Positions 2,250-48,369 of a stretch of DNA of 64,000 nt are shown here, piece by piece (position 1 is the stretch's first letter; every line of letters starts with the position of its first letter). A program made the position numbers and the translations under genes. This stretch comes from Candidatus Levyibacteriota bacterium (GTDB taxonomy: Bacteria; Patescibacteriota; Microgenomatia; Levybacterales; UBA12049). The notes beneath the pieces are model-generated. The model saw only the letters and a program-made list of their open reading frames with translations, did not search any database and was not told where the DNA came from. The stretch spans positions 72,477-136,476 of the forward strand of contig JACQHJ010000001.1 of assembly GCA_016199085.1 (NCBI GenBank). The letters run 5' to 3'.

Positions 2250-2373
2250 AAAAAAACTCTCAAAAAGAGAGTCAAGATTTTGTCTTTTTAAGACCTCATC
2301 CTCCAGGCACCGTAGTCTTTCTCGGTTGCCGGTCCGCTACTTTGCGGGCTCTCTTGATGAACAATACTTTAAA
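2250..2373 (-). promoter_or_regulatory. SAM-I-family riboswitch-like leader (SAM-I/IV-like, no P4) with an intrinsic terminator, directly upstream of metK
   Basis: Minus-strand RNA UUCAUCAAGAGAGCCCGC..GCGGACCGGCAACC..GGUGCCUGGAGGAUGAGG carries the P1, AAGAG, GCAACC, GGUGCC and GAUGAG core elements. It is followed by CUCUCUUUUUGAGAG plus a U7 tract immediately before the AUG. Confidence 0.55.
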
Positions 2374-4788: not shown

Positions 4789-5124
4789 TTAATGTTTTCT
4801 AAAAAAGAAAAGTTCAGTTGCTGCAAATAATATAAAAAGCAAAACCAGGAAGAAGGTTTGGTTAAGATTATTTAATCTAAGAATTAAATAAATCAAAGAA
4901 AAAGTAGCAAGAAGTAACCCTTGGATTTTATTTGCAAAAATAAACCAAACGGTTGTCCAAAGAAAAATAAACAAAAGTAAAAAACCAATAGGTATTGCTG
5001 TTATTTTAAGAGAGGAAAAAGAAACAGTTGTATTGGGTGAAAAGGCAAAGACAAGATAGATTAAGCAAATTAAAGAAATAACAGAAAGAACAGGAAGGAT
5101 TAAAAGTTTCTTTCTTTTTCGCAT
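4789..5124 (-). CDS. hypothetical multi-pass small membrane protein
   Basis: 111 aa, almost entirely hydrophobic helices. Confidence 0.35.
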   Translation of the reverse strand: MRKRKKLLILPVLSVISLICLIYLVFAFSPNTTVSFSSLKITAIPIGFLLLFIFLWTTVWFIFANKIQGLLLATFSLIYLILRLNNLNQTFFLVLLFILFAATELFFFRKH

Positions 5125-39412: not shown

Positions 39413-39720
39413 TAATAAATTGCAAGTAGAAATGTAACTTAAATTACCACAATTAAAATATGACTCTTATGTAGTTTGGGCAGGTAAAAATAGTAAAAGA
39501 GACTTATAGGAAATTGCTATAGTTAGGTTAACTTTTGTTTTAGTTTGAAATAGTTATTTGAGGCTATAAAGTATTCAAATATTCGTTTGACAAACCAAGC
39601 GACTTGGATAATTATACATATGTATAAGTAATTTCTTCATATCTTGAAGAAATTTACACAGGGTGTTATAATTGCAGTCCTTTGTACTGCCCCTAAGTAC
39701 ATTAAAATTGAATTTATCAC

Positions 39721-39794
39721 AAAGCCGACGAGATTCGAACTCGTAACCTTCCCGTTAGTAGCAGGTTGCTCTGTCCAGTTGAGCTACGGCTTTG
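39721..39794 (-). tRNA. tRNA gene with a short variable loop, no encoded CCA, and a hand-folded anticodon loop CU-ACU-AA
   Basis: Minus-strand AAAGCCG-UA-GCUC-AACUGGACA-GAGC-A-ACCUG-CUACUAA-CGGGA-AGGUU-ACGAG-UUCGAAU-CUCGU-CGGCUUU-G. Acceptor, D and T arms are canonical; the anticodon stem has an A-A mismatch. Confidence 0.6.
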
Positions 39795-40804: not shown

Positions 40805-41143
40805 TTGTTGTATAATTCAAAAATGATTCCGCGTACAGAATTACAACTTGAACATGTAGGTATGGAAGTAGATACATATCAGACGATTGCTGTTTTTAAG
40901 TCTGATTGGGCGAGAAATCCTCAGGATGTAATAACGGCAAAAGACAAATTAAAAAGGGATTTTCATCCCTCAACCTTAAGAATAAGGCAAGATGCCGAAG
41001 TTACAGAAACACCAGATGAGATAGTTTTCCATCCCATACTTGTTTGGACGGCAACCTGGATACATGGGTATACTCCCATAGTGCCTAATCTTGTAGATCT
41101 GCATGAAGATTATCTGTTTCATTACAACCTTCCTGCGTTATAG
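40805..41143 (+). CDS. hypothetical protein (112 aa)
   Basis: ORF only. Confidence 0.3.
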   Translation: MLYNSKMIPRTELQLEHVGMEVDTYQTIAVFKSDWARNPQDVITAKDKLKRDFHPSTLRIRQDAEVTETPDEIVFHPILVWTATWIHGYTPIVPNLVDLHEDYLFHYNLPAL

Positions 41144-41147
41144 ATAT

Positions 41148-41900
41148 ATGTCAAGAAAACTTGAAGCAAGAGAAAACGCCAAAAAAGGAATCAGAGACCA
41201 GGACCCCCGCGTAGAAGTCCCACGCTTTATCCCTCCAATGTTGGTTGGGGAATTAGGAACCAGGAATCTGTCTTTGCTTGACAGGCAGAAACGCTTCTAT
41301 GAGGTTAAGGCAGACGGGTACAGAACCATAGTAACCATTAGGCATGGCGAGGATGGCCCAATAGTCAGGCTATTATCAAAAAACGGAAAAGATATAACCC
41401 AAAGATTTCCTTTGGTTACAACTCAACTTGCAGACATAAAAGATGAAGTCGTATTAGACGGAGAAATGGAAGCTTTAAGACCAAGGCCAGATGCACTGGG
41501 AATAACAACCCAAGAAGAAAACGCCCTTTTTGAGATGTATGGAGGTTTGGTTCCTGACAGGAATTTACTTTCTCTTTCAGCCATTCATTTAAGACACGTA
41601 GATTACAGACTTAGGTTATTTGATATCCTGTTTTTAAACGGAAGGCATTTGACTACAAAGCCTCTTTCGGAAAGAAAGCTTTATTTAAATGAAGTTGTTC
41701 CGGATGAGTTAAGCGCAGTTTCGACTGTTCCATATTTTGAATATACCTCCGATGCAGCACTGCTTAGGCTTTTAAAAGCAGTTGATAAATTCGGTCTTGA
41801 AGGAATGGTAGCTAAAAGAACAGACAGCGTTTATACGCCGGGTAGAAGAAGCGACAGATGGCTAAAGATAAAAAGAACACCGCAACAACCAATCCACTAG
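41148..41900 (+). CDS. ATP-dependent DNA ligase, nucleotidyltransferase domain only (no OB domain)
   Basis: PPML start, motif I YEVKADGYR, motif III DGEME, motif IV EGMVAK and motif V GRRSDRWLKIK; the ORF ends right after motif V. Confidence 0.7.
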   Translation: MSRKLEARENAKKGIRDQDPRVEVPRFIPPMLVGELGTRNLSLLDRQKRFYEVKADGYRTIVTIRHGEDGPIVRLLSKNGKDITQRFPLVTTQLADIKDEVVLDGEMEALRPRPDALGITTQEENALFEMYGGLVPDRNLLSLSAIHLRHVDYRLRLFDILFLNGRHLTTKPLSERKLYLNEVVPDELSAVSTVPYFEYTSDAALLRLLKAVDKFGLEGMVAKRTDSVYTPGRRSDRWLKIKRTPQQPIH

Positions 41901-41954
41901 CTCTTGCCCTATAGTTTGCCTTTTAGAAACATTTTCTGTATAATCCCATCTGGC

Positions 41955-43451
41955 ATGGCAGTAAGAAATGAAGCAATAGAGCAATCCGCACAAGCAATCT
42001 CTTTTCCTTTCGCACACGGTACAAGGCCTGAAACAGCTCGTATGTTAATTGACGCACGGGAATCAGGAGTCTTAGAAGGGCTAAGACCGGCAGTACGCGA
42101 ACTAATTGATAGATATTACGGAACAGATGCAAGCCTAAAAGATCTTGGCGTTGCTGCAGGAATGAGCACAAGTCACATCGGCGTAAGACTTAGACAGGGA
42201 CTGGAAGAAATAAGAGAACTTTTGGGAGACGAAGTTACGGAAAAATACCCAAAAGAAGCAACTCTACTTAAGTTAGCCATGCCAAGACCACCAAGAGATT
42301 TAGATCAGGTTCAAGCGCCTTTTCCGATTTCTGTAAGACTTGACACACCTCAAAAAGAAACAAGACACAAAGAGGCAATGCAAAGAGTTTTTGAAAGACC
42401 CCCTGTCTATTTTAAGTCTTCAGAATATTTGCTCAGAAGATATGTTCCTCCTAAAATGCCTGACCAAGAACCCCATGGAGAATTAATGCCTATGACCCAA
42501 AGGGTATTAACTTTAATAGGAAGGGGACTTACCTACGCTGAAATTGCTCCGATAGTCGGAATGTCAACGAAAATGGTTGGGTTCGTAATAGGAAGAAAAG
42601 TTATCCGTCCGGTCATGCAAGTTTCTAACCCGCATGAAGCATTGGTAGTAAGTTTAACAAAGGGTCTTGTTAGTCTTCGCGAAGCCTCGAAAGGGTTAAA
42701 TTTATCAGACGAAAATGTTGACAGTCTATCAATTCGGGCAGTAGAAGTATTAATTGCTGATACAGTTGATAATCTTGGAATGACCAGAAAGCAGATAGGA
42801 GAAAGAATAGGTAATACAGAAAGTGCAATCGAAGACCTCAGGACAAGAATATATCAAAAACTTGGAGTATTAAGTAAAGCTCAGGCCACTGTATTTGTTA
42901 TGGCATATGTTAAGAAAGCTATGTATGAGAGAAGATATCCTATAAAAGATACGATTGAAGGTGGGGGATCTTTTGAGGATTATCATGCACCTGAAGCTCC
43001 TGATATTCAATACACTATTGATTATTTAAAAAATGTTGGAATTAGTGAGCGTGATAAGCAGGCATTTCTTATTCATTTCCTTTGGTCTGAAGGTAGGGGT
43101 ACATACGCTTTGATTAGAAGACATTTACGGTTAGAAGACAGACCAATAATAGAAGTTTTGCTTAATAGAGTAATCGATGCAGAAGTGGATCCGAGATATT
43201 CAATTCCTGTTTTGGATATCTATCACAATATTTTTGCTCCCATCGAACTTGCAAGAGTTATTTTTTTCAACAATAAAGGAGAAAGGACTTATGAAAGATT
43301 TAGGGCGTTGGTAGATATCTGTAGGAAAAGAATAAGAGAAGAGCATATAACAGGCTATAAGCCTTCTACGAGAACAGAGCTTAATATTGAGGCACAAAGA
43401 CTTCTTGATCAGAGAAAAGCGGCAAGGCAGGAGGTTGTAGTTTTTGACTAA
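41955..43451 (+). CDS. regulator with three tandem sigma70-r4 / LuxR-type HTH units and an unknown C-terminal domain
   Basis: LKDLGVAAGMSTSHIGVRLRQGLEEIR, LTYAEIAPIVGMSTKMVGFVIGRKV and RKQIGERIGNTESAIEDLRTRIYQKLGV. Confidence 0.5.
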   Translation: MAVRNEAIEQSAQAISFPFAHGTRPETARMLIDARESGVLEGLRPAVRELIDRYYGTDASLKDLGVAAGMSTSHIGVRLRQGLEEIRELLGDEVTEKYPKEATLLKLAMPRPPRDLDQVQAPFPISVRLDTPQKETRHKEAMQRVFERPPVYFKSSEYLLRRYVPPKMPDQEPHGELMPMTQRVLTLIGRGLTYAEIAPIVGMSTKMVGFVIGRKVIRPVMQVSNPHEALVVSLTKGLVSLREASKGLNLSDENVDSLSIRAVEVLIADTVDNLGMTRKQIGERIGNTESAIEDLRTRIYQKLGVLSKAQATVFVMAYVKKAMYERRYPIKDTIEGGGSFEDYHAPEAPDIQYTIDYLKNVGISERDKQAFLIHFLWSEGRGTYALIRRHLRLEDRPIIEVLLNRVIDAEVDPRYSIPVLDIYHNIFAPIELARVIFFNNKGERTYERFRALVDICRKRIREEHITGYKPSTRTELNIEAQRLLDQRKAARQEVVVFD

Positions 43452-43474: not shown

Positions 43475-44356
43475 ATGAAAATCCTCTTCGATACAGATAT
43501 CGGTTCAGACATAGATGATGCCTTATGCCTTGCCTATTTATTGGCTAATCCCAGCTGTGATTTATTGGGTGTTACTACGGTAACCGGAGAGGCTGAGAAA
43601 AGAGCGATGATTATTAGCGCCTTGTGTCAAAACGCGGGAAAGAATATACCTATTTTTCCAGGAGCAGAGACTCCTCTTTTGATTTCTCAAAAGCAAATCC
43701 AAGCTCCTCAGGCTTTAGCTTTGGATAAATGGCCGCACAAAAAGTCTTTTCCTAAAAGGGAAGCAGTACGTTTTCTGCAAGAGACTATTCGTAACAATCC
43801 TCACGAGATAACTCTGTTGGCAACAGGACCATTAACTAATATTGCACAGCTTTTTAAAATTGATGAAGAAATACCTTCACTTTTAAAAGGTTTGGTGCTT
43901 ATGTGCGGGGCGTTTAATGATAAGGCTGCTAACTTGGGTACTTGTGATTCTGTTGAGTGGAATGCTCTTGTCGATCCACATGCTGCAGATATAGTTTATA
44001 AATCAGCTGTTAAATCCCATAAATCGGTGGGGTTAAATGTTACATGTAAGGTAAAATTAAAGAAAGAGGTTTTAAAAAAACGATTAAGTGTTAGTCATTT
44101 ACTTACTCCTATAGCTGACTTTGCTGAGATTTGGTTTCAAGAAGAAGGCGAGGCTACTTTCCACGATCCACTGGCAGCCATCACAATTTTTAACCAAGAT
44201 GTATGTGTTTTTGAAAACGGAAAAGTAGAAGTTGAATTAATAAGTGAAGAACTCAAAGGAATGACCTATTTCACCCCTGGAGAGGGTCAAAATCAAGTTG
44301 CTTTACACGTTAATATAGATAAGTTTTTCGACAGTTATTTTGCAGTGTTTAAGTAA
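43475..44356 (+). CDS. inosine-uridine preferring nucleoside hydrolase family
   Basis: N-terminal DTDIGSDIDDA (DxDxxxDD) motif. Confidence 0.85.
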   Translation: MKILFDTDIGSDIDDALCLAYLLANPSCDLLGVTTVTGEAEKRAMIISALCQNAGKNIPIFPGAETPLLISQKQIQAPQALALDKWPHKKSFPKREAVRFLQETIRNNPHEITLLATGPLTNIAQLFKIDEEIPSLLKGLVLMCGAFNDKAANLGTCDSVEWNALVDPHAADIVYKSAVKSHKSVGLNVTCKVKLKKEVLKKRLSVSHLLTPIADFAEIWFQEEGEATFHDPLAAITIFNQDVCVFENGKVEVELISEELKGMTYFTPGEGQNQVALHVNIDKFFDSYFAVFK

Positions 44357-44416
44357 TAACTATATGCGGTTATTATATAGAGGATTGTTGAATACATAAC
44401 TACCTCATAGTAATTA

Positions 44417-44445
44417 TTGACATCTGTTACATTTTTTGCTACAAT
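44417..44445 (+). promoter_or_regulatory. strong sigma70-type promoter TTGACA-17-TACAAT
   Basis: Near-consensus hexamers about 300 nt upstream of the 44745 ORF. Confidence 0.5.
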
Positions 44446-44616
44446 TTACCCAACAATTAAAGAGTGCGTTTAAAGAAGAAGAGTAAGTTTAATATTAGAT
44501 TTTAGCAAGTGATGACAGCTGAAAGCATCATAATCGAAAATTAACTGAAAAGAGCTTCTTAGCACAGAACCGAAGAAAGCATTTGCAAGTAGGTTTATAA
44601 ATGAGCTATCTATAGA

Positions 44617-44733
44617 CTCTGTCAAGGTTGACACAGAGCTTTTTTAGTACAAAATAGATAGGAATAAAGGTGGTACCACGGGAATTCCCGTCCTTGTTTC
44701 GAAAGTAATTTCGAAATGAAGACGGGTTTTTTT
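44617..44733 (+). promoter_or_regulatory. structured 5' leader with two intrinsic-terminator-like hairpins and a competing antiterminator palindrome
   Basis: Hairpin 1 is CUCUGUCAAGGUUGACACAGAG plus U6. Hairpin 2 is CCCGUCC...GACGGG plus U7. The ACGGGAAUUCCCGU palindrome shares the CCCGUC strand with hairpin 2. Confidence 0.45.
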
Positions 44734-44744
44734 ATGGAGAAAAT

Positions 44745-45875
44745 ATGAAAGAATTTGGGCAACATTTTTATATTCCGGAAGGAATTTTAGTTCAAGGACC
44801 AAGCATAGCTAACGGTTCTGGCTCTTTTGTGGCAGAAGCGCATAGTGATGAGGTATTAACGCCAGGTGCAATTAATTGTTTGAGAGATCAATTCGCGATA
44901 GACATGGAACTAGTTGCAGCTGATCTTAAAAGCGATGGATTAGCAAGGCAATATGCTGGCTCGTTATTTAAAAAACTAGTAGGTAATGGAGCAAATACAC
45001 TTGAACAGCTAGTAATAGCTGGATCACAGGAGTTTTACCATGTTGGTAAATATGTTTTAGGGCCATTGGCAGTAAGTGTTGTAGATACTGTTTTAAAAGG
45101 GTGTAATGGAAAAGCCATCTTTCCTGCAAGGGATGCAACTCCCTTTTTCCATATCGCTAAAACTCTCAAGAAGCTTAATCCAGATGCTTATCCAGTAGCC
45201 ATGGATGATATTGTAAATCCTGATTTTAATAGAACGCTATGGGGAGTAGAAGATGAAGAAGATCAAGATCCAGAAGGTGAAGTAATGTCAGTTTCCCACC
45301 CATTAGTACAAAAACTTTTATCTCAAATGGGATTTTTCTCTGATCAGCCTAAAACTTTTATAGAAGTAGGTTGCTGGGGTTCAATGGTAGATGAGTTAAA
45401 TAAAGCAATGAAGAAAGGTGATATACCCACAGAAGAATATTCTGTTTATTTCCTATATACACATTTGCCAAATAATATTTATGGCTTTACCAATATTGTT
45501 GGAGAAAATATACCCGAAGACGTACTTGAGACAATAGCAGATACATGGGAAGCATTCCCTAAATTTTACAAAAAGGTAAAAAAATTAGTCGAAGAAGACG
45601 GCATAGTAAAAGGTTCACGAGTGTTTGTCAACTCACCTTTTTTGCAACCTTGGACAGAAGCTGCTTTACAGGGTGTTGAAGATGCAGCAAGTGATTTCAT
45701 TTGTCAAGGACAAGTTATAAATCCTCAAGATGAGTTGTTAAAACTTTGGCGATTATCTATTCAAGCGCAGTCTGGCCAATTTACTGGAGTATTACCTGGA
45801 CATACAAAAACATGGTCTAAAGGAGAAGAATGGAAAGCTAATTGGAAATGGGGGAGGGTTCCGCCATTAAAGTAA
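44745..45875 (+). CDS. hypothetical protein (376 aa), first gene of the leader-controlled operon
   Basis: ORF only; GC noticeably above the local background. Confidence 0.4.
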   Translation: MKEFGQHFYIPEGILVQGPSIANGSGSFVAEAHSDEVLTPGAINCLRDQFAIDMELVAADLKSDGLARQYAGSLFKKLVGNGANTLEQLVIAGSQEFYHVGKYVLGPLAVSVVDTVLKGCNGKAIFPARDATPFFHIAKTLKKLNPDAYPVAMDDIVNPDFNRTLWGVEDEEDQDPEGEVMSVSHPLVQKLLSQMGFFSDQPKTFIEVGCWGSMVDELNKAMKKGDIPTEEYSVYFLYTHLPNNIYGFTNIVGENIPEDVLETIADTWEAFPKFYKKVKKLVEEDGIVKGSRVFVNSPFLQPWTEAALQGVEDAASDFICQGQVINPQDELLKLWRLSIQAQSGQFTGVLPGHTKTWSKGEEWKANWKWGRVPPLK

Positions 45876-45887
45876 AAGGAGCAAAGT

Positions 45888-46673
45888 ATGTTTAATAAGT
45901 TATTCAAAAATAATAAGCCAATGATTGGAATGATCCATTTACCACCCTTACCGGGGTATATAAAACATCCCGGAATGGATGCAGTGATAAAAAAAGCCCT
46001 AATAGATTTGAATACATTGCAAAAAGCAGGTTTTGACGGGGTGTTAATTGAGAATGACAATGATCAGCCACATCAAATTGGAGTTTCAAAAAGTATTACT
46101 GCATCGTTTACTAAAGTAATGAAACAGGTCTGTAAAGAAGCAAAAATACCTGTTGGAATGGAGATAATTTATGATATGCCACAAACTATCAAAACCGCTC
46201 ATAAAGTGGGAGCAGATTTTGTACGCCTTGATGTTTTCGTAGATACTGTTTTGACAAAATGGGGAAAAATACCATCCCAAGCTAAAGAGCTGGTTGTCTT
46301 AAAAGAGAAAATAGGTGCAAAAGAATTAGTCATGTTAACTGATATTCAAGTTAAGCATGCGCAAATGTTAGATAAAAAGACTTTAGAACAATCAGCTAAA
46401 GAAGCAGCTCAATATATTTCTAATGCGCTGATAGTTACAGGAGATTGGACAGGTCATCCTCCTTTTATTAATGATTGCAAGAAAGTAAAAAAAGCTGCAA
46501 AAGCAACACCTCTCCTTATTGGTAGCGGTTTGGATAGTAAGAATATTAAGAAGTTATTTAAATATGCAGACGGTGCAATTGTGGGAACTTCAATTAAAAC
46601 AGGAGATTATATTGATCTTGTCAAAGCAACAAATCTTATAAATGTTGTTAAAAAAATAAGGAGTAAGATATGA
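45888..46673 (+). CDS. BtpA/SgcQ-family TIM-barrel protein
   Basis: MIGMIHLPPLPGY...GFDGVLIEN N-terminal signature. Confidence 0.7.
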   Translation: MFNKLFKNNKPMIGMIHLPPLPGYIKHPGMDAVIKKALIDLNTLQKAGFDGVLIENDNDQPHQIGVSKSITASFTKVMKQVCKEAKIPVGMEIIYDMPQTIKTAHKVGADFVRLDVFVDTVLTKWGKIPSQAKELVVLKEKIGAKELVMLTDIQVKHAQMLDKKTLEQSAKEAAQYISNALIVTGDWTGHPPFINDCKKVKKAAKATPLLIGSGLDSKNIKKLFKYADGAIVGTSIKTGDYIDLVKATNLINVVKKIRSKI

Positions 46674-47491
46674 AAATTATTAGCGTTGGCGACATAGGTA
46701 TTGATGAATATGTAGATCTCGGTATTAAAAAACCAGGAGGAATTGCTTTTAACTTTGCTGTTAATGTTATTAAAAACAATACTGATTGTTCTTTGCTAAG
46801 TGTAATAGGGAAAGATCAAGAAGGAAAACAGCTAAAAAACCTATTGCACAGTTTAAATATTGATATATCTCATCTTCAGAAAGTAAATGGGAAAACAGCT
46901 AAGCAGAATATTGCGCTTAAAGAAAATGGAGAGAGAAAATTTGTTGGATACAATGCTGGAGTTTTTAATAAATGGCATCTAAGTAAAAAGGATATTAACT
47001 TTATTTTAAAACATAATGTTGTTTTTGTTTCCCTATCTGATGGGCTGGAAGACATAGTTCATGCAATAGCTAATTTACAAGGAAATATAACAAAAATAAT
47101 TGACTTTTCTCAGGATTATAAATTTGCTGATTTTGAATCTGAGGATAACTTAATCGCAAAACATTGTATTAATTTCGACATTATTTTCATAGGAGGAAAT
47201 GAAAAATTGATAAAGCGAGTTAAAACACTCGGTGCTAAATTTTCTGAGAAGTTATTTATTCTTACTCTTGGCAACCAAGGAAGTCTAGCGTTTCAAAACG
47301 ACAGATCTTATTTTCAAAAGGCAAAGAAAATAAAGAAGATTATTGATACAACTGGATGCGGTGATGCATTCCAAGCAGGTTTTGTTACTGCTTATTTAAA
47401 CAATAAAGATATTCAACAAGCTTTAAACTCTGGAGCAAAACAAGCAGAGTCTGTAATAACTCATATTGGCTCTACGGAATTAAATTTATAA
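46670..47491 (+). CDS. PfkB-family carbohydrate/nucleoside kinase
   Basis: DTTGCGDAFQAGFV PfkB signature 2 and an N-terminal GG-containing sugar-binding region. Confidence 0.8.
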   Translation: MKIISVGDIGIDEYVDLGIKKPGGIAFNFAVNVIKNNTDCSLLSVIGKDQEGKQLKNLLHSLNIDISHLQKVNGKTAKQNIALKENGERKFVGYNAGVFNKWHLSKKDINFILKHNVVFVSLSDGLEDIVHAIANLQGNITKIIDFSQDYKFADFESEDNLIAKHCINFDIIFIGGNEKLIKRVKTLGAKFSEKLFILTLGNQGSLAFQNDRSYFQKAKKIKKIIDTTGCGDAFQAGFVTAYLNNKDIQQALNSGAKQAESVITHIGSTELNL

Positions 47492-47493
47492 AT

Positions 47494-48369
47494 ATGGAAA
47501 CTATTAAACCAGTACCAGTAGAAATAGCTAAGGAAAATAAAGGTATCCTAAAAGTCAAAGAAACTCTTAAGAATGGAGGATGGGCATTCTTTGATGTTGA
47601 CGGAACACTTGAAGATACAAATGGAATTCCAATTGATCTTAATACGTACTTACAGTTACTAATATCTAATGGTGTTGAGTTAGGCATTTCTACCGGAAGA
47701 TGCCAAACAGACTTAATCAGGTTTTTTAGCAAAGTAGGTGATTCATATAGGCAGTTATTTAAGGGGTGGTTATTTTTGGAAGATTCACACGTAACTGTTG
47801 AGCCAGGCAATTCCATAAATGAAGCAGCAATATTGACTGACCCTAAGACTTTACAAGAAATGGAAATGTTTGAGAAGTTATTTACTTCTAGTTGGTTACC
47901 TTCGGAGGCTTTACCTGGTTGGGGTTTCTTGAAAAACTTACCTGCTCCTCCAGTTAAATTACCACAATATCCTCACTATGGAACAGTAGCTATTTGGGAG
48001 AAAGGACCTTATGAAAGTCCTGAATATGGATTAATGATGGTGTGGGCGTTAAATGCAGCAAGACAGTTAGGTATAGAGACTATAGAATTTTTAGAAACAG
48101 GTGACGGATCTCTAAGGCTACTACAAAAAGGAATTAATAAGGGAACAGGATTAAAAACATTGGTAGAAAGAGGAATAATAGATTTAAGTAGAACTGTTTA
48201 TTTTGGAGATGCAAATAATGATATTTCAGCAGCAGAGATAGTATCAAATGGCGGTGGAGCAGTAGTAGCGCTTGCAAATGCCACAAGAGGTTTCAAAAAT
48301 GTCTCAACACACGTAACATCACATCCAGCAGGATTGGGTGTTATAGAGGTTGTAAAACAACTGTATTAA
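47494..48369 (+). CDS. HAD-superfamily (IIB/Cof-like) phosphatase
   Basis: FFDVDGTL motif I and GDANNDISAAE motif IV. Confidence 0.7.
   Translation: METIKPVPVEIAKENKGILKVKETLKNGGWAFFDVDGTLEDTNGIPIDLNTYLQLLISNGVELGISTGRCQTDLIRFFSKVGDSYRQLFKGWLFLEDSHVTVEPGNSINEAAILTDPKTLQEMEMFEKLFTSSWLPSEALPGWGFLKNLPAPPVKLPQYPHYGTVAIWEKGPYESPEYGLMMVWALNAARQLGIETIEFLETGDGSLRLLQKGINKGTGLKTLVERGIIDLSRTVYFGDANNDISAAEIVSNGGGAVVALANATRGFKNVSTHVTSHPAGLGVIEVVKQLY

What the first reader, a model, noticed from the sequence alone, without database searches (positions are those of the whole stretch)
44417..44744. Long leader with tandem terminator hairpins and a mutually exclusive antiterminator ahead of an unknown-BtpA-PfkB-HAD operon
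A near-consensus promoter (TTGACA-17-TACAAT) is followed by a ~290-nt untranslated leader that ends in two hairpin-plus-U-tract terminators (44617-44646 and 44687-44733). The second terminator's 5' strand (CCCGUC) is also the 3' half of a perfect palindrome, ACGGGAAUUCCCGU, giving a textbook terminator/antiterminator alternative. This is the architecture of a riboswitch or protein-mediated attenuator. The operon it controls (unknown 376-aa protein, BtpA-family TIM barrel, PfkB kinase, HAD phosphatase, downstream of a nucleoside hydrolase) points to a nucleoside or sugar-phosphate ligand, but the aptamer does not match any class I can recognise by eye.
Basis: seen in the sequence. Interest (0 to 1): 0.55.

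Follow-up and report, generated by a model that had tools for sequence, protein, structure and literature searches.

The report
Arginine tRNA-sensing T-box leader in CPR
The long leader is a T-box riboswitch that most likely senses uncharged arginine tRNA, found in an ultrasmall Candidate Phyla Radiation bacterium, and it switches on an operon of unknown function that relatives control with a second, unrelated arginine sensor.

Summary
The aptamer is not unknown. The leader (44460-44698) matches the Rfam T-box model end to end (83.7 bits, E 9e-19), just under the curated cutoff of 93, so the default scan missed it. The palindrome is antiterminator helix A2 next to the UGGUACC bulge. The "first terminator" is the tip of an extended stem III. 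The ligand is a tRNA, not a nucleoside or sugar phosphate. The specifier is AGA (Arg, 44551-44553). Relatives support Arg: 13 loci carry homologous T-boxes before the same gene, with AGA in a side bulge or CGC in an apical loop. One has tRNA-Arg(UCU) after the T-box, one has ArgRS in the operon, and four use an Arg-codon leader-peptide attenuator instead of or besides the T-box. The host is a Ca. Levybacteria MAG. The first gene has the fold of PRPP-dependent ribofuranosyltransferases (CriT of Bcs3) and is always paired with a BtpA barrel. What this module does for arginine is unknown. The RNA is a new member of a known class. The arginine-wired operon is the novel lead.

The parts
44417..44445 (+). 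Sigma-70-type promoter: TTGACA, 17-nt spacer, TACAAT with an extended -10 TG. Transcription probably starts near 44452.
   Evidence: 11 of 12 matches, the best site in the region. TTGACA promoters sit at the same relative place in the L004, L008, L017, L019, L022, L025, L026 and L027 leaders (sequences).
44460..44698 (+). T-box leader, the full extent of the RF00230 match.
   Evidence: 83.7 bits, E 8.6e-19, model positions 1-219 of 219. E 1.2e-16 window-wide. The curated gathering score is 93.
44466..44563 (+). Stem I (long type). It has a GC base with a K-turn region, helix GAAG 44475-44478 / CUUC 44555-44558, a specifier loop (5' AAGAGUA 44479-44485, 3' GAAAAGAG 44547-44554), an AG bulge AGCAA 44504-44508, and a distal loop 44515-44525 containing UGAAA.
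   Evidence: searches (alignment to the model and minimum-energy fold; compensatory changes against L004), and the motif definitions in PMC7583486.
44551..44553 (+). Specifier codon AGA (Arg), followed by the stacking purine G44554.
   Evidence: The TBDB rule places the specifier at positions 2-4 from the 3' end of the bulge (PMC7778990). AGA-G is conserved in L004 while the preceding base differs.
44567..44596 (+). Stem II (GAACC / GGUUU) with GAAG...AGUA S-turn-like motifs.
44606..44661 (+). Extended stem III: outer helix CUAUCUAU 44606-44613 / AUAGAUAG 44654-44661 enclosing the embedded hairpin.
   Evidence: The outer helix changes with compensation in L004.
44617..44645 (+). Embedded stem III hairpin (CUCUGU/ACAGAG) plus U6.
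   Evidence: A GC hairpin followed by U5-7 occupies the same place in L004, L008, L017, L022, L025, L026 and L027. Pauses in a T-box leader act as kinetic checkpoints (PMC13001445).
44667..44695 (+). Antiterminator (discriminator core): helix A1 AAGG 44667-44670 / CCUU 44692-44695, T-box bulge UGGUACC 44671-44677, helix A2 ACGGG 44678-44682 / CCCGU 44687-44691.
   Evidence: -8.9 kcal/mol; A2 covaries across 12 leaders and the bulge is conserved.
44687..44733 (+). Intrinsic terminator (-21.9 kcal/mol) plus U7. Its 5' strand overlaps the 3' strands of A2 and A1.
44745..45875 (+). Gene 1: 376-aa protein with the fold of CriT-type PRPP-dependent ribofuranosyl-5-phosphate transferases. RBS GGAG at 44736-44739.
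45888..46673 (+). Gene 2: BtpA/SgcQ-family phosphate-binding TIM barrel, always paired with gene 1.
46670..47491 (+). Gene 3: PfkB-family kinase. Its closest NCBIfam model is fructoselysine 6-kinase, below the cutoff.
47494..48369 (+). Gene 4: HAD-IIB (Cof-type) phosphatase, the expected partner of a CriT-type transferase.
   Evidence: It is fused to the gene-1 family in P0041 and P0217.

Best explanation
The leader is a transcriptional T-box riboswitch. After initiation at the 44417-44445 promoter, stem I presents the codon AGA (44551-44553) in its specifier loop to the anticodon of tRNA-Arg(UCU). The distal loop and AG bulge contact the tRNA elbow. If the tRNA is uncharged, its 3' NCCA end pairs with UGGU in the bulge (44671-44674). 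This stabilises the weak antiterminator (44667-44695, -8.9 kcal/mol), so the much stronger terminator (44687-44733, -21.9 kcal/mol) cannot form, and RNA polymerase reads on into the four-gene operon. Charged Arg-tRNA cannot stabilise the antiterminator, and transcription stops at the U7 tract. Its hairpin+U6 most likely makes the polymerase pause just before the T-box sequence is made, which gives the tRNA time to dock. What is shown here: membership of the T-box family, the alternative structures, and conservation with covariation in relatives. What is inferred: the Arg specificity (strongly supported by context), the pause role, and the actual switching. The operon is thus induced by arginine or Arg-tRNA shortage. 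Its core, a CriT-like PRPP-type transferase plus a BtpA barrel, probably supplies or salvages arginine or otherwise serves tRNA-Arg charging, through chemistry not yet known.
For: T-box identity. RF00230 matches over the full model at 83.7 bits, E 8.6e-19, and it is the only such hit in 64 kb. All the hallmark parts are present: the K-turn base, the AGUA/GAA specifier loop, UGAAA in the distal loop, stem II, stem III, AAGGUGGUACC, and an overlapping terminator.

Conservation. Homologous T-box leaders precede the same gene family in 13 loci, with protein identity as low as 36-37%. Leave-one-out nhmmer profiles recover L026, L025, L028 and L013 at E 3.5e-34 to 1.7e-12, and also hit the window discriminator at E 6e-13 to 3e-8. 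Helix A2 covaries and the UGGNACC bulge is conserved. Stem I and stem III show compensatory changes against L004.

Arg specificity.
(a) AGA followed by a purine sits at the canonical position in the window, L002, L016 and L004, while the base before it varies (and the rule).
(b) The short-stem-I relatives carry an apical hairpin with an invariant CGC followed by a purine. 44 of 45 stem cells are paired, with 2-5 pair types at four of the five pairs. An apical specifier is the known design for short stem I.
(c) In L004 a tRNA-Arg(UCU) gene lies between the T-box terminator and the gene, and its discriminator G matches that leader's UGGC bulge.
(d) In L026 ArgRS is the third gene of the operon.
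(e) L020, L024, L014 and L026 have homologous leader peptides with RRR/RR clusters. Their alternative hairpins behave as an Arg attenuator when a stalled ribosome is simulated.

Pause reading. A hairpin followed by U5-7 recurs inside stem III with unrelated sequences. Programmed pauses before the decision point are functional in the B. subtilis glyQS T-box (PMC13001445).
Against: The Rfam score is below the curated gathering cutoff (83.7 against 93). The AG bulge reads AGCAA rather than the AGAGA consensus. The purine after the specifier is G, where A is usual. The frames AAG (Lys, -1) and GAG (Glu, +1) cannot be excluded from the window sequence alone. The cognate tRNA-Arg(UCU) of this genome is not in the window, so the UGGU/discriminator match is untested here. 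The embedded hairpin is weak in the window (-6.1 kcal/mol; whole stem III z = -1.7) and is absent from L013, L019 and L028, so its role is uncertain. The target genes are not known amino-acid genes, which is unusual for a T-box. One close relative (L009, 93% protein identity) lacks the T-box. There is no expression or biochemical data.
Confidence: 0.85

Rival explanations
1. It is a T-box, but it reads a different tRNA: tRNA-Lys through the overlapping AAG (44550-44552), or tRNA-Glu through GAG (44552-44554). It might also read two tRNAs.
For: The 8-nt 3' side of the specifier loop, GAAAAGAG, contains AAG followed by A, the more usual purine. The best NCBIfam match of the PfkB kinase is fructoseLYSine 6-kinase. 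TBDB notes that -1 and +1 frames and multi-tRNA specificity are possible. GAG is also conserved in L004.
Against: In L004 the -1 frame reads CAG (Gln), not Lys. Nothing in any locus points to Lys or Glu. In contrast, tRNA-Arg(UCU), ArgRS, the CGC apical specifiers and the Arg-rich leader peptides all point to Arg.
Confidence: 0.06
2. The first hairpin+U6 (44617-44645) is a genuine, separately regulated terminator. The leader would then have two decision points, the first answering to another signal such as a protein, a second RNA contact or NusA/NusG.
For: A GC hairpin followed by U5-7 is kept at this position in 8 of 11 distinct leaders, with different sequences. The hairpin sequence is nearly identical between the window and L004 even though the flanks have diverged, which hints at sequence-specific recognition.
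Against: It is nested inside stem III, a required T-box element. No competing upstream antiterminator pairing is apparent. In several relatives the U-run simply pairs with a purine-rich 5' strand to lengthen stem III. In the window the hairpin is weak (-6.1 kcal/mol). It is missing in three leaders that otherwise look functional.
Confidence: 0.1
3. It is a small-molecule riboswitch or protein-mediated attenuator responding to a nucleoside, PRPP or a sugar phosphate.
For: The operon encodes sugar-phosphate enzymes, and a nucleoside hydrolase lies upstream.
Against: The whole leader is accounted for by the T-box model at E 8.6e-19. No other Rfam family matches meaningfully. The nucleoside hydrolase lies upstream of the promoter and outside the regulated unit.
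Confidence: 0.01
4. It is a decaying or non-functional T-box relic left in front of genes unrelated to amino acids.
For: The score is below the gathering cutoff, the target genes are non-canonical, and a close relative (L009) has lost the T-box.
Against: All functional motifs are intact. The same association is conserved across 13 loci down to 36-37% protein identity, with covariation. Independent Arg attenuators on the same genes show selection for this regulation.
Confidence: 0.03

Closest known systems
Arg-specific transcriptional T-box leaders of Firmicutes (RF00230; for example upstream of argS, as catalogued in TBDB)
   Same: Same parts and logic: a long stem I with K-turn, a specifier loop with the codon followed by a purine, stem II, stem III, the UGGN bulge in an antiterminator that competes with a terminator, and an Arg codon ending in A, one of the two endings reported as preferred for Arg T-boxes.
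   Different: The host is a Ca. Levybacteria (CPR) MAG, and my literature searches found no paper linking T-boxes to CPR. The regulated genes are a CriT-like transferase, a BtpA barrel, a PfkB kinase and a HAD phosphatase, not an aaRS, transporter or known biosynthetic gene. Stem III is extended and carries a hairpin+U-run. There is no clear IIA/B pseudoknot. The score is under the curated cutoff.
Short (ultrashort) stem I T-boxes of Actinobacteria (ileS of Mycobacterium and Nocardia)
   Same: The relatives L008, L013, L017, L019, L022 and L025-L028 have a K-turn, a short stem I with the specifier in the apical loop followed by a purine, an S-turn stem II, and an F-box/IIA-B element, as described in PMC7583486.
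   Different: These CPR versions end in intrinsic terminators, so they act on transcription, whereas the actinobacterial ones are translational. They read CGC (Arg) rather than AUC (Ile). The window's own leader is of the long type.
Programmed pauses of the B. subtilis glyQS T-box (positions 138, 178, 207)
   Same: A polymerase pause placed after the tRNA-decoding domain and before the antiterminator decision acts as a kinetic checkpoint (PMC13001445). The stem III hairpin+U-run here is in the equivalent position.
   Different: Here the element has the full shape of an intrinsic terminator embedded in stem III. Pausing has not been measured.
Leader-peptide transcription attenuators (trp, his, leu type)
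   Same: In relatives (L020, L024, L014, L026) a short ORF with clustered codons for one amino acid overlaps 1:2, 2:3 and 3:4 alternative hairpins that end in a terminator.
   Different: The regulatory codons are Arg. The hosts are CPR bacteria. In L026 the attenuator follows a T-box in tandem. No attenuator is present in the window itself.
CriT/CrpP module of H. influenzae Bcs3 and the T. composti ribofuranosyltransferase (PDB 8a0c, 7shg)
   Different: There is no detectable sequence similarity to the solved enzymes. The protein is stand-alone at 376 aa, with no polymerase or export context. It is always paired with a BtpA barrel and is regulated by Arg-tRNA status. The donor and acceptor are unknown.

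Membership tests
T-box leader (RF00230) | Significant full-length match to the family covariance model | tested here: met
   83.7 bits, E 8.6e-19, model positions 1-219 of 219. E 1.2e-16 across the whole window.
T-box leader (RF00230) | Score at or above Rfam's curated gathering threshold (93 bits) | tested here: not met
   83.7 against 93. The close relatives L002 and L016 score 81.8 and 78.4. This cutoff is a curation threshold, not a structural feature.
T-box leader (RF00230) | Stem I with a K-turn base and a specifier loop (AGUA / GAA S-turn) presenting a codon followed by a purine | tested here: met
   AAGAGUA 44479-44485; GAA 44547-44549; AGA 44551-44553; G44554; helix GAAG/CUUC.
T-box leader (RF00230) | Distal stem I double T-loop motifs (AGAGA bulge and UGxRA loop) for the tRNA elbow | tested here: inconclusive
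   The loop has UGAAA (44520-44524), which fits UGxRA. The bulge reads AGCAA (44504-44508) instead of AGAGA. Both are conserved in L004. The consensus comes from PMC7583486.
T-box leader (RF00230) | T-box sequence forming an antiterminator with a 7-nt UGGNACC bulge between helices A1 and A2 | tested here: met
   AAGG-UGGUACC-ACGGG...CCCGU-CCUU at 44667-44695. A2 covaries in 12 leaders.
T-box leader (RF00230) | A mutually exclusive, more stable terminator with a U-tract that overlaps the 3' strands of the antiterminator | tested here: met
   44687-44733: -21.9 against -8.9 kcal/mol.
T-box leader (RF00230) | A cognate tRNA in the host whose anticodon matches the specifier and whose discriminator base pairs with N of UGGN | tested here: inconclusive
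   No tRNA-Arg gene lies in the window. In the relative L004 the adjacent tRNA-Arg(UCU) matches AGA, and its discriminator G matches UGGC.
T-box leader (RF00230) | Readthrough dependent on uncharged tRNA | not testable with these tools
   Needs in vitro transcription or reporter assays.
CriT-type PRPP-dependent ribofuranosyl-5-phosphate transferases | PRTase-like alpha/beta catalytic core flanked by helical bundles (fold) | tested here: met
CriT-type PRPP-dependent ribofuranosyl-5-phosphate transferases | Catalytic Asp (loop 1, S-R-D) and Glu (loop 3) plus the 5-phosphate-binding loop | tested here: inconclusive
   Invariant A128-R129-D130 follows strand 123-125, and near-invariant E207 followed by GxWGS ends strand 203-207. 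These positions resemble R679/D680 and E818 as described in PMC10299916. No residue-level superposition was available.
CriT-type PRPP-dependent ribofuranosyl-5-phosphate transferases | A partner HAD-like phosphatase that removes the 5-phosphate | tested here: met
   A HAD-IIB gene is in the operon. Fusions occur in P0041 and P0217. Many loci, however, have only the CriT-like gene plus BtpA.
CriT-type PRPP-dependent ribofuranosyl-5-phosphate transferases | Detectable sequence homology to characterised members | tested here: not met
   No PDB sequence hit even at E 10 with a profile, nor through remote intermediates. No Pfam or NCBIfam family matches.
CriT-type PRPP-dependent ribofuranosyl-5-phosphate transferases | Use of PRPP as donor onto a hydroxyl acceptor | not testable with these tools
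   Needs enzymology.
Leader-peptide attenuators (in relatives only) | A short translated ORF with clustered regulatory codons overlapping alternative 1:2, 2:3 and 3:4 hairpins that end in a terminator | tested here: met
   L026, L024, L020 and L014 peptides with RRR/RR clusters. Masking a stalled ribosome switches the fold from terminator to antiterminator in L024, L026 and L014; L020 is unclear.

The most novel reading that the evidence does not exclude
The CriT-like transferase and its obligate BtpA-barrel partner (with the PfkB kinase and HAD phosphatase as accessories) form a previously unrecognised arginine-linked pathway of CPR bacteria and DPANN archaea. It would be a PRPP/ribose-phosphate-based route to obtain or salvage arginine, or to service tRNA-Arg charging. 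Evolution has wired it to Arg-tRNA availability at least twice: through T-boxes that read AGA or CGC, and through RRR leader peptides. This would give the long-uncharacterised BtpA/SgcQ family its first biochemical context. It would also show T-box control, including of a cognate tRNA gene in L004, in the Candidate Phyla Radiation.
Probability: 0.45. Interest if true: 0.8.

Novelty: new member of a known kind. Interest (0 to 1): 0.6.

Why it matters
What it controls and where it occurs make it useful.

First, it places T-box regulation in a Candidate Phyla Radiation lineage. Very little is known about gene regulation in these organisms, and they depend on external amino acids.

Second, the regulatory evidence amounts to a functional annotation for proteins that have none. 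Two mechanistically unrelated sensors of Arg-tRNA control the same gene pair. ArgRS, tRNA-Arg(UCU) and an aminoacyl-tRNA editing domain are recruited to that pair in different genomes. Together these say that a PRPP-transferase-fold protein and a BtpA/SgcQ barrel act in arginine or tRNA-Arg homeostasis. BtpA/SgcQ proteins are widespread and have no established enzymatic function to my knowledge, and this gives a concrete, testable handle on them.

Third, the family shows long and short stem I designs with different Arg codons on orthologous operons, and a terminator-shaped element inside stem III. Both are of interest for T-box evolution and for co-transcriptional kinetics.

Tried and rejected
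- The default Rfam scan at gathering thresholds missed the element. Only the E-value scan found it.
- Lys specificity looked attractive because of AAG+A and the FrlD-like kinase. I rejected it because L004 reads CAG in that frame and all context evidence points to Arg.
- A fructosamine (Amadori) deglycation pathway for fructosyl-lysine or fructosyl-arginine could not be supported. The PfkB match to FrlD is below the cutoff and PfkB is not part of the conserved core.
- Sequence searches for gene 1 against PDB found nothing, and nothing through the remote multidomain relatives either.
- The AlphaFold database fold library was unavailable.
- Literature searches for a BtpA/SgcQ function returned only unrelated 'BtpA' usages. 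Searches for T-boxes in CPR or Patescibacteria returned nothing.
- The Rfam T-box model performs poorly on the short-stem-I relatives: 15-44 bits, and L025 and L026 were missed in a larger scan. I replaced it with leave-one-out nhmmer profiles.
- MAFFT could not keep the small apical hairpins in register, so I counted pairs directly.
- My automatic parse of the L013 antiterminator picked the terminator pairing. By eye it is GCC/GGC followed by CCUUG.
- I could not find the genome's own tRNA-Arg.
Full report
OBSERVATION.
- A near-consensus promoter, TTGACA-17-TACAAT with an extended -10 TG, lies at 44417-44445. It is the best promoter-like site in the surrounding 5.6 kb.
- It is followed by a ~290-nt leader with no credible ORF.
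- Hairpin 1 is CUCUGU 44617-44622 / ACAGAG 44632-44637 followed by U6 at 44640-44645.
- Hairpin 2 is the long stem 44687-44726 followed by U7 at 44727-44733.
- The palindrome ACGGGAAUUCCCGU at 44678-44691 shares CCCGU with the 5' strand of the second hairpin.
- The downstream ORFs are a 376-aa protein with no Pfam or NCBIfam match, a BtpA/SgcQ barrel, a PfkB kinase and a HAD-IIB phosphatase. An inosine-uridine nucleoside hydrolase ends at 44356, upstream of the promoter.

WHAT THE LEADER IS. The default Rfam scan reported nothing here. A sensitive scan of 44350-44800 matched the T-box leader family RF00230 over the whole model (positions 1-219) at 83.7 bits, E 8.6e-19. Over the entire window the E-value is 1.2e-16. 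The curated cutoff is 93 bits, which explains the miss. Every part of a transcriptional T-box can be placed:
- Stem I, 44466-44563. It has a K-turn region at its base, the helix GAAG/CUUC, a specifier loop with AAGAGUA on the 5' side and GAAAAGAG on the 3' side, an AG bulge (AGCAA), and a distal loop containing UGAAA.
- Stem II, 44567-44596.
- An extended stem III, 44606-44661.
- The T-box sequence AAGG-UGGUACC-ACGGG...CCCGU-CCUU, 44667-44695.
- The overlapping terminator, 44687-44733.

The antiterminator is weak (-8.9 kcal/mol) and the terminator strong (-21.9 kcal/mol). That is the usual T-box arrangement, in which the off state is the default and uncharged tRNA is needed to hold the on state (mechanism as reviewed in PMC7583486).

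HOST. Gene 1 is 100% identical to a hypothetical protein from a Candidatus Levybacteria MAG on a 143-kb contig. All 42 word-index homologues are unannotated metagenomic proteins, several labelled Levybacteria or Patescibacteria. Three literature searches found no paper that mentions T-box riboswitches together with CPR or Patescibacteria. That is absence within the searchable library, not proof of novelty.

RELATIVES AND CONSERVATION. I collected loci encoding the gene-1 family from genome and metagenome collections and from Logan/ENA assemblies. A T-box leader with a TTGACA promoter, a UGGNACC bulge and a terminator lies directly upstream of the gene in 13 loci: the window, L002, L016, L004, L008/L010, L017/L018, L019, L013, L022, L025, L026, L027 and L028. 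Protein identity to the window goes down to 36-37%. There are two designs.
- Long stem I: the window, L002, L016 and L004.
- Short stem I: the rest. These have a K-turn and a 4-5-bp stem I capped by a 6-7-nt loop, followed by an S-turn stem II and an F-box/IIA-B element. L025 and L027 carry insertions.

The Rfam model scores the short type poorly, at 15-44 bits. I therefore ran leave-one-out nhmmer profiles. The left-out leaders were recovered over their full length: L026 at E 3.5e-34, L025 at 2e-29, L028 at 5.9e-23 and L013 at 1.7e-12. The same profiles hit the window's discriminator domain, 44657-44733, at E 6e-13 to 3e-8, and nothing else in the window. Helix A2 covaries (ACGGG/CCCGU, GUCC/GGGC, GCCU/AGGC, GUCA/UGGC, GUGGG/CUCGU), while the bulge and A1 are conserved. 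Stem I and the outer helix of stem III show compensatory changes between the window and L004.

WHICH tRNA. TBDB places the specifier at positions 2-4 from the 3' end of the stem I bulge (PMC7778990). By that rule the window's specifier is AGA (44551-44553), with G44554 as the stacking purine. The window alone cannot exclude the neighbouring frames AAG (Lys) or GAG (Glu). Five independent observations settle it for Arg.
1. L004 reads GAA-C-AGA-G where the window reads GAA-A-AGA-G, so the -1 frame changes (CAG against AAG) while AGA stays.
2. All nine short-type leaders carry an apical hairpin whose loop is Y-CGC-R(-R). CGC is invariant, the closing pair is always A-U, and 44 of 45 stem cells are paired, with 2-5 pair types at four positions. 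In short stem I T-boxes the specifier sits in the apical loop followed by a purine, and C is preferred at the third position (PMC7583486).
3. In L004 a tRNA-Arg gene with anticodon UCU, which reads AGA, lies 19 nt after the T-box terminator and 18 nt before gene 1. Its discriminator G pairs with the C of that leader's UGGC bulge.
4. In L026 the operon is CriT-like, then BtpA, then arginyl-tRNA synthetase. ArgRS is confirmed by Arg_tRNA_synt_N, tRNA-synt_1d and DALR_1.
5. Bacterial loci without a T-box (L020, L024, L014), and L026 in tandem after its T-box, have a short ORF with a Shine-Dalgarno sequence and clustered Arg codons. The peptides are MSLLTFVSQFDNRRCARTTGGCS, MKTFNFRTVEFRRRSYRITGGCS, MKTTFFVSVEVRRRNSRISGSCPCMC and MLSYNFTVIRSSISLRRSCI. 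The ORFs overlap 1:2, 2:3 and 3:4 hairpins. Folding with the region covered by a ribosome stalled at the Arg cluster replaces the terminator with the 2:3 antiterminator in L024, L026 and L014. A free leader, or a ribosome at the stop codon, gives the terminator. L020 is less clear.

So the same genes are controlled by two unrelated sensors of Arg-tRNA availability. I put the Arg assignment at roughly 0.85-0.9.

THE STEM III HAIRPIN. In the window it is a weak hairpin (-6.1 kcal/mol) with U6. The whole of stem III folds only modestly better than shuffles (z = -1.7). However, a GC-rich hairpin followed by U5-7, with unrelated sequence, occupies the same place inside stem III in L004, L008, L017, L022, L025, L026 and L027 (z = -3 to -7 in most). 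It is absent in L013, L019 and L028. Between the window and L004 the hairpin is almost identical in sequence although the flanks differ. Pauses in the B. subtilis glyQS leader at positions 138, 178 and 207 act as kinetic checkpoints for tRNA capture (PMC13001445). I therefore read this element as a programmed pause placed just before the T-box sequence is transcribed. That is an inference. A partial or separately regulated terminator cannot be excluded.

- A BtpA of this subfamily is fused to a YbaK-type aminoacyl-tRNA editing domain in L028, again behind a CGC T-box.
- EamA transporters are adjacent in L014, L019 and L023.
- An AdoMet_dc-family decarboxylase, a DDAH-like protein and a ureidoglycolate-lyase-like protein lie near L019.
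- In two archaeal-labelled MAGs (L003, L006) the pair has no T-box and lies divergent to an ACT-domain protein.

I could not derive the chemistry. The regulatory logic says the products help when Arg-tRNA is scarce. That could mean arginine supply or salvage through a phosphoribosyl intermediate, or a function in tRNA-Arg charging.

COMPARISON AND NOVELTY. The RNA works like, and is, a T-box. All the structural defining features were tested and met, apart from the curated bit-score cutoff and an imperfect AG bulge. Arg-specific T-boxes are known. The leader itself is therefore a new member of a known kind. Four things are new:
- the phylum;
- the non-canonical target genes;
- the coexistence of long-AGA and short-CGC designs on orthologous operons;
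- the terminator-shaped insertion in stem III.

More important is the inference that a CriT-fold protein plus BtpA belongs to arginine or tRNA-Arg homeostasis, supported by a second, independent regulatory mechanism.

VERDICT. Confidence is about 0.97 that this is a T-box and 0.85 for the stated mechanism including Arg specificity. The operon's biochemical role remains open. Interest is 0.6, because of the operon lead rather than the RNA class.

Noticed in passing
L026 2668-2800; L024 2096-2225; L020 5848-5985; L014 4740-4860: Homologous Arg-rich leader peptides (RRR/RR clusters) with 1:2, 2:3 and 3:4 alternative hairpins and a terminator lie upstream of the same gene family. This looks like a ribosome-mediated arginine attenuator in CPR bacteria. 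There is no Rfam match. In L026 it follows a T-box in tandem.
   Followed up: partly
L004 4993-5064: A tRNA-Arg(UCU) gene lies between the T-box terminator (which ends at 4974) and the CriT-like gene (which starts about 5083), with no obvious promoter of its own. A T-box may therefore control transcription of its own cognate tRNA.
   Followed up: partly
L028 1924-3153 (P0095): A BtpA of this subfamily is fused to a YbaK/ProX-type aminoacyl-tRNA editing domain (PF04073, E 2.8e-16), downstream of a CGC-specifier T-box and a CriT-like gene.
   Followed up: partly
L026 4781-6460: Arginyl-tRNA synthetase is the third gene of the CriT-like/BtpA operon in this relative.
   Followed up: yes
L009 4790-5000: In a relative whose gene-1 protein is 93% identical to the window's, the T-box is replaced by a different leader with its own promoter and terminator (GACCUCGCC-AAG-GGCGGGGU-U7). 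It has no T-box motif and no Arg-rich ORF. The last ~25 nt before the start codon are identical to the window.
   Followed up: no
L003 5273-5881(-) and L006 1475-2083(-): In two MAGs labelled Micrarchaeota or Micrarchaeaceae, the CriT-like/BtpA pair has no RNA leader. It lies divergent to a conserved ACT-domain + DUF7523 protein, a possible amino-acid-binding regulator.
   Followed up: no
window 2266-2365 (-): A SAM-I/IV riboswitch aptamer (RF01725, 55.6 bits, above its gathering score) lies upstream of the minus-strand ORF 1155-2249.
   Followed up: no
window 39719-39794 (-): ARAGORN calls this tRNA gene tRNA-Ser with anticodon ACT. An unmodified A at position 34 is unusual for a serine tRNA.
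   Followed up: no
window 41103-43451 (+): An ATP-dependent DNA ligase domain protein (265 aa) is followed immediately by a 515-aa protein with several sigma-70 region 4 / LuxR-type HTH segments. This is an odd pairing just upstream of the nucleoside hydrolase.
   Followed up: no
L001, L002 (record titles): Contigs that encode proteins 90-93% identical to the Levybacteria protein, with an almost identical T-box, are filed in MAGs labelled Melainabacteria and Gammaproteobacteria. These are probably binning errors in public MAGs.
   Followed up: no
L014 8658-9869; L014 3758-4666; L019 and L023 upstream: A radical SAM gene follows BtpA in L014. EamA-family transporters flank the operon in L014, L019 and L023. 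In L019 and L023 an AdoMet_dc-family decarboxylase also lies divergently upstream.
   Followed up: no
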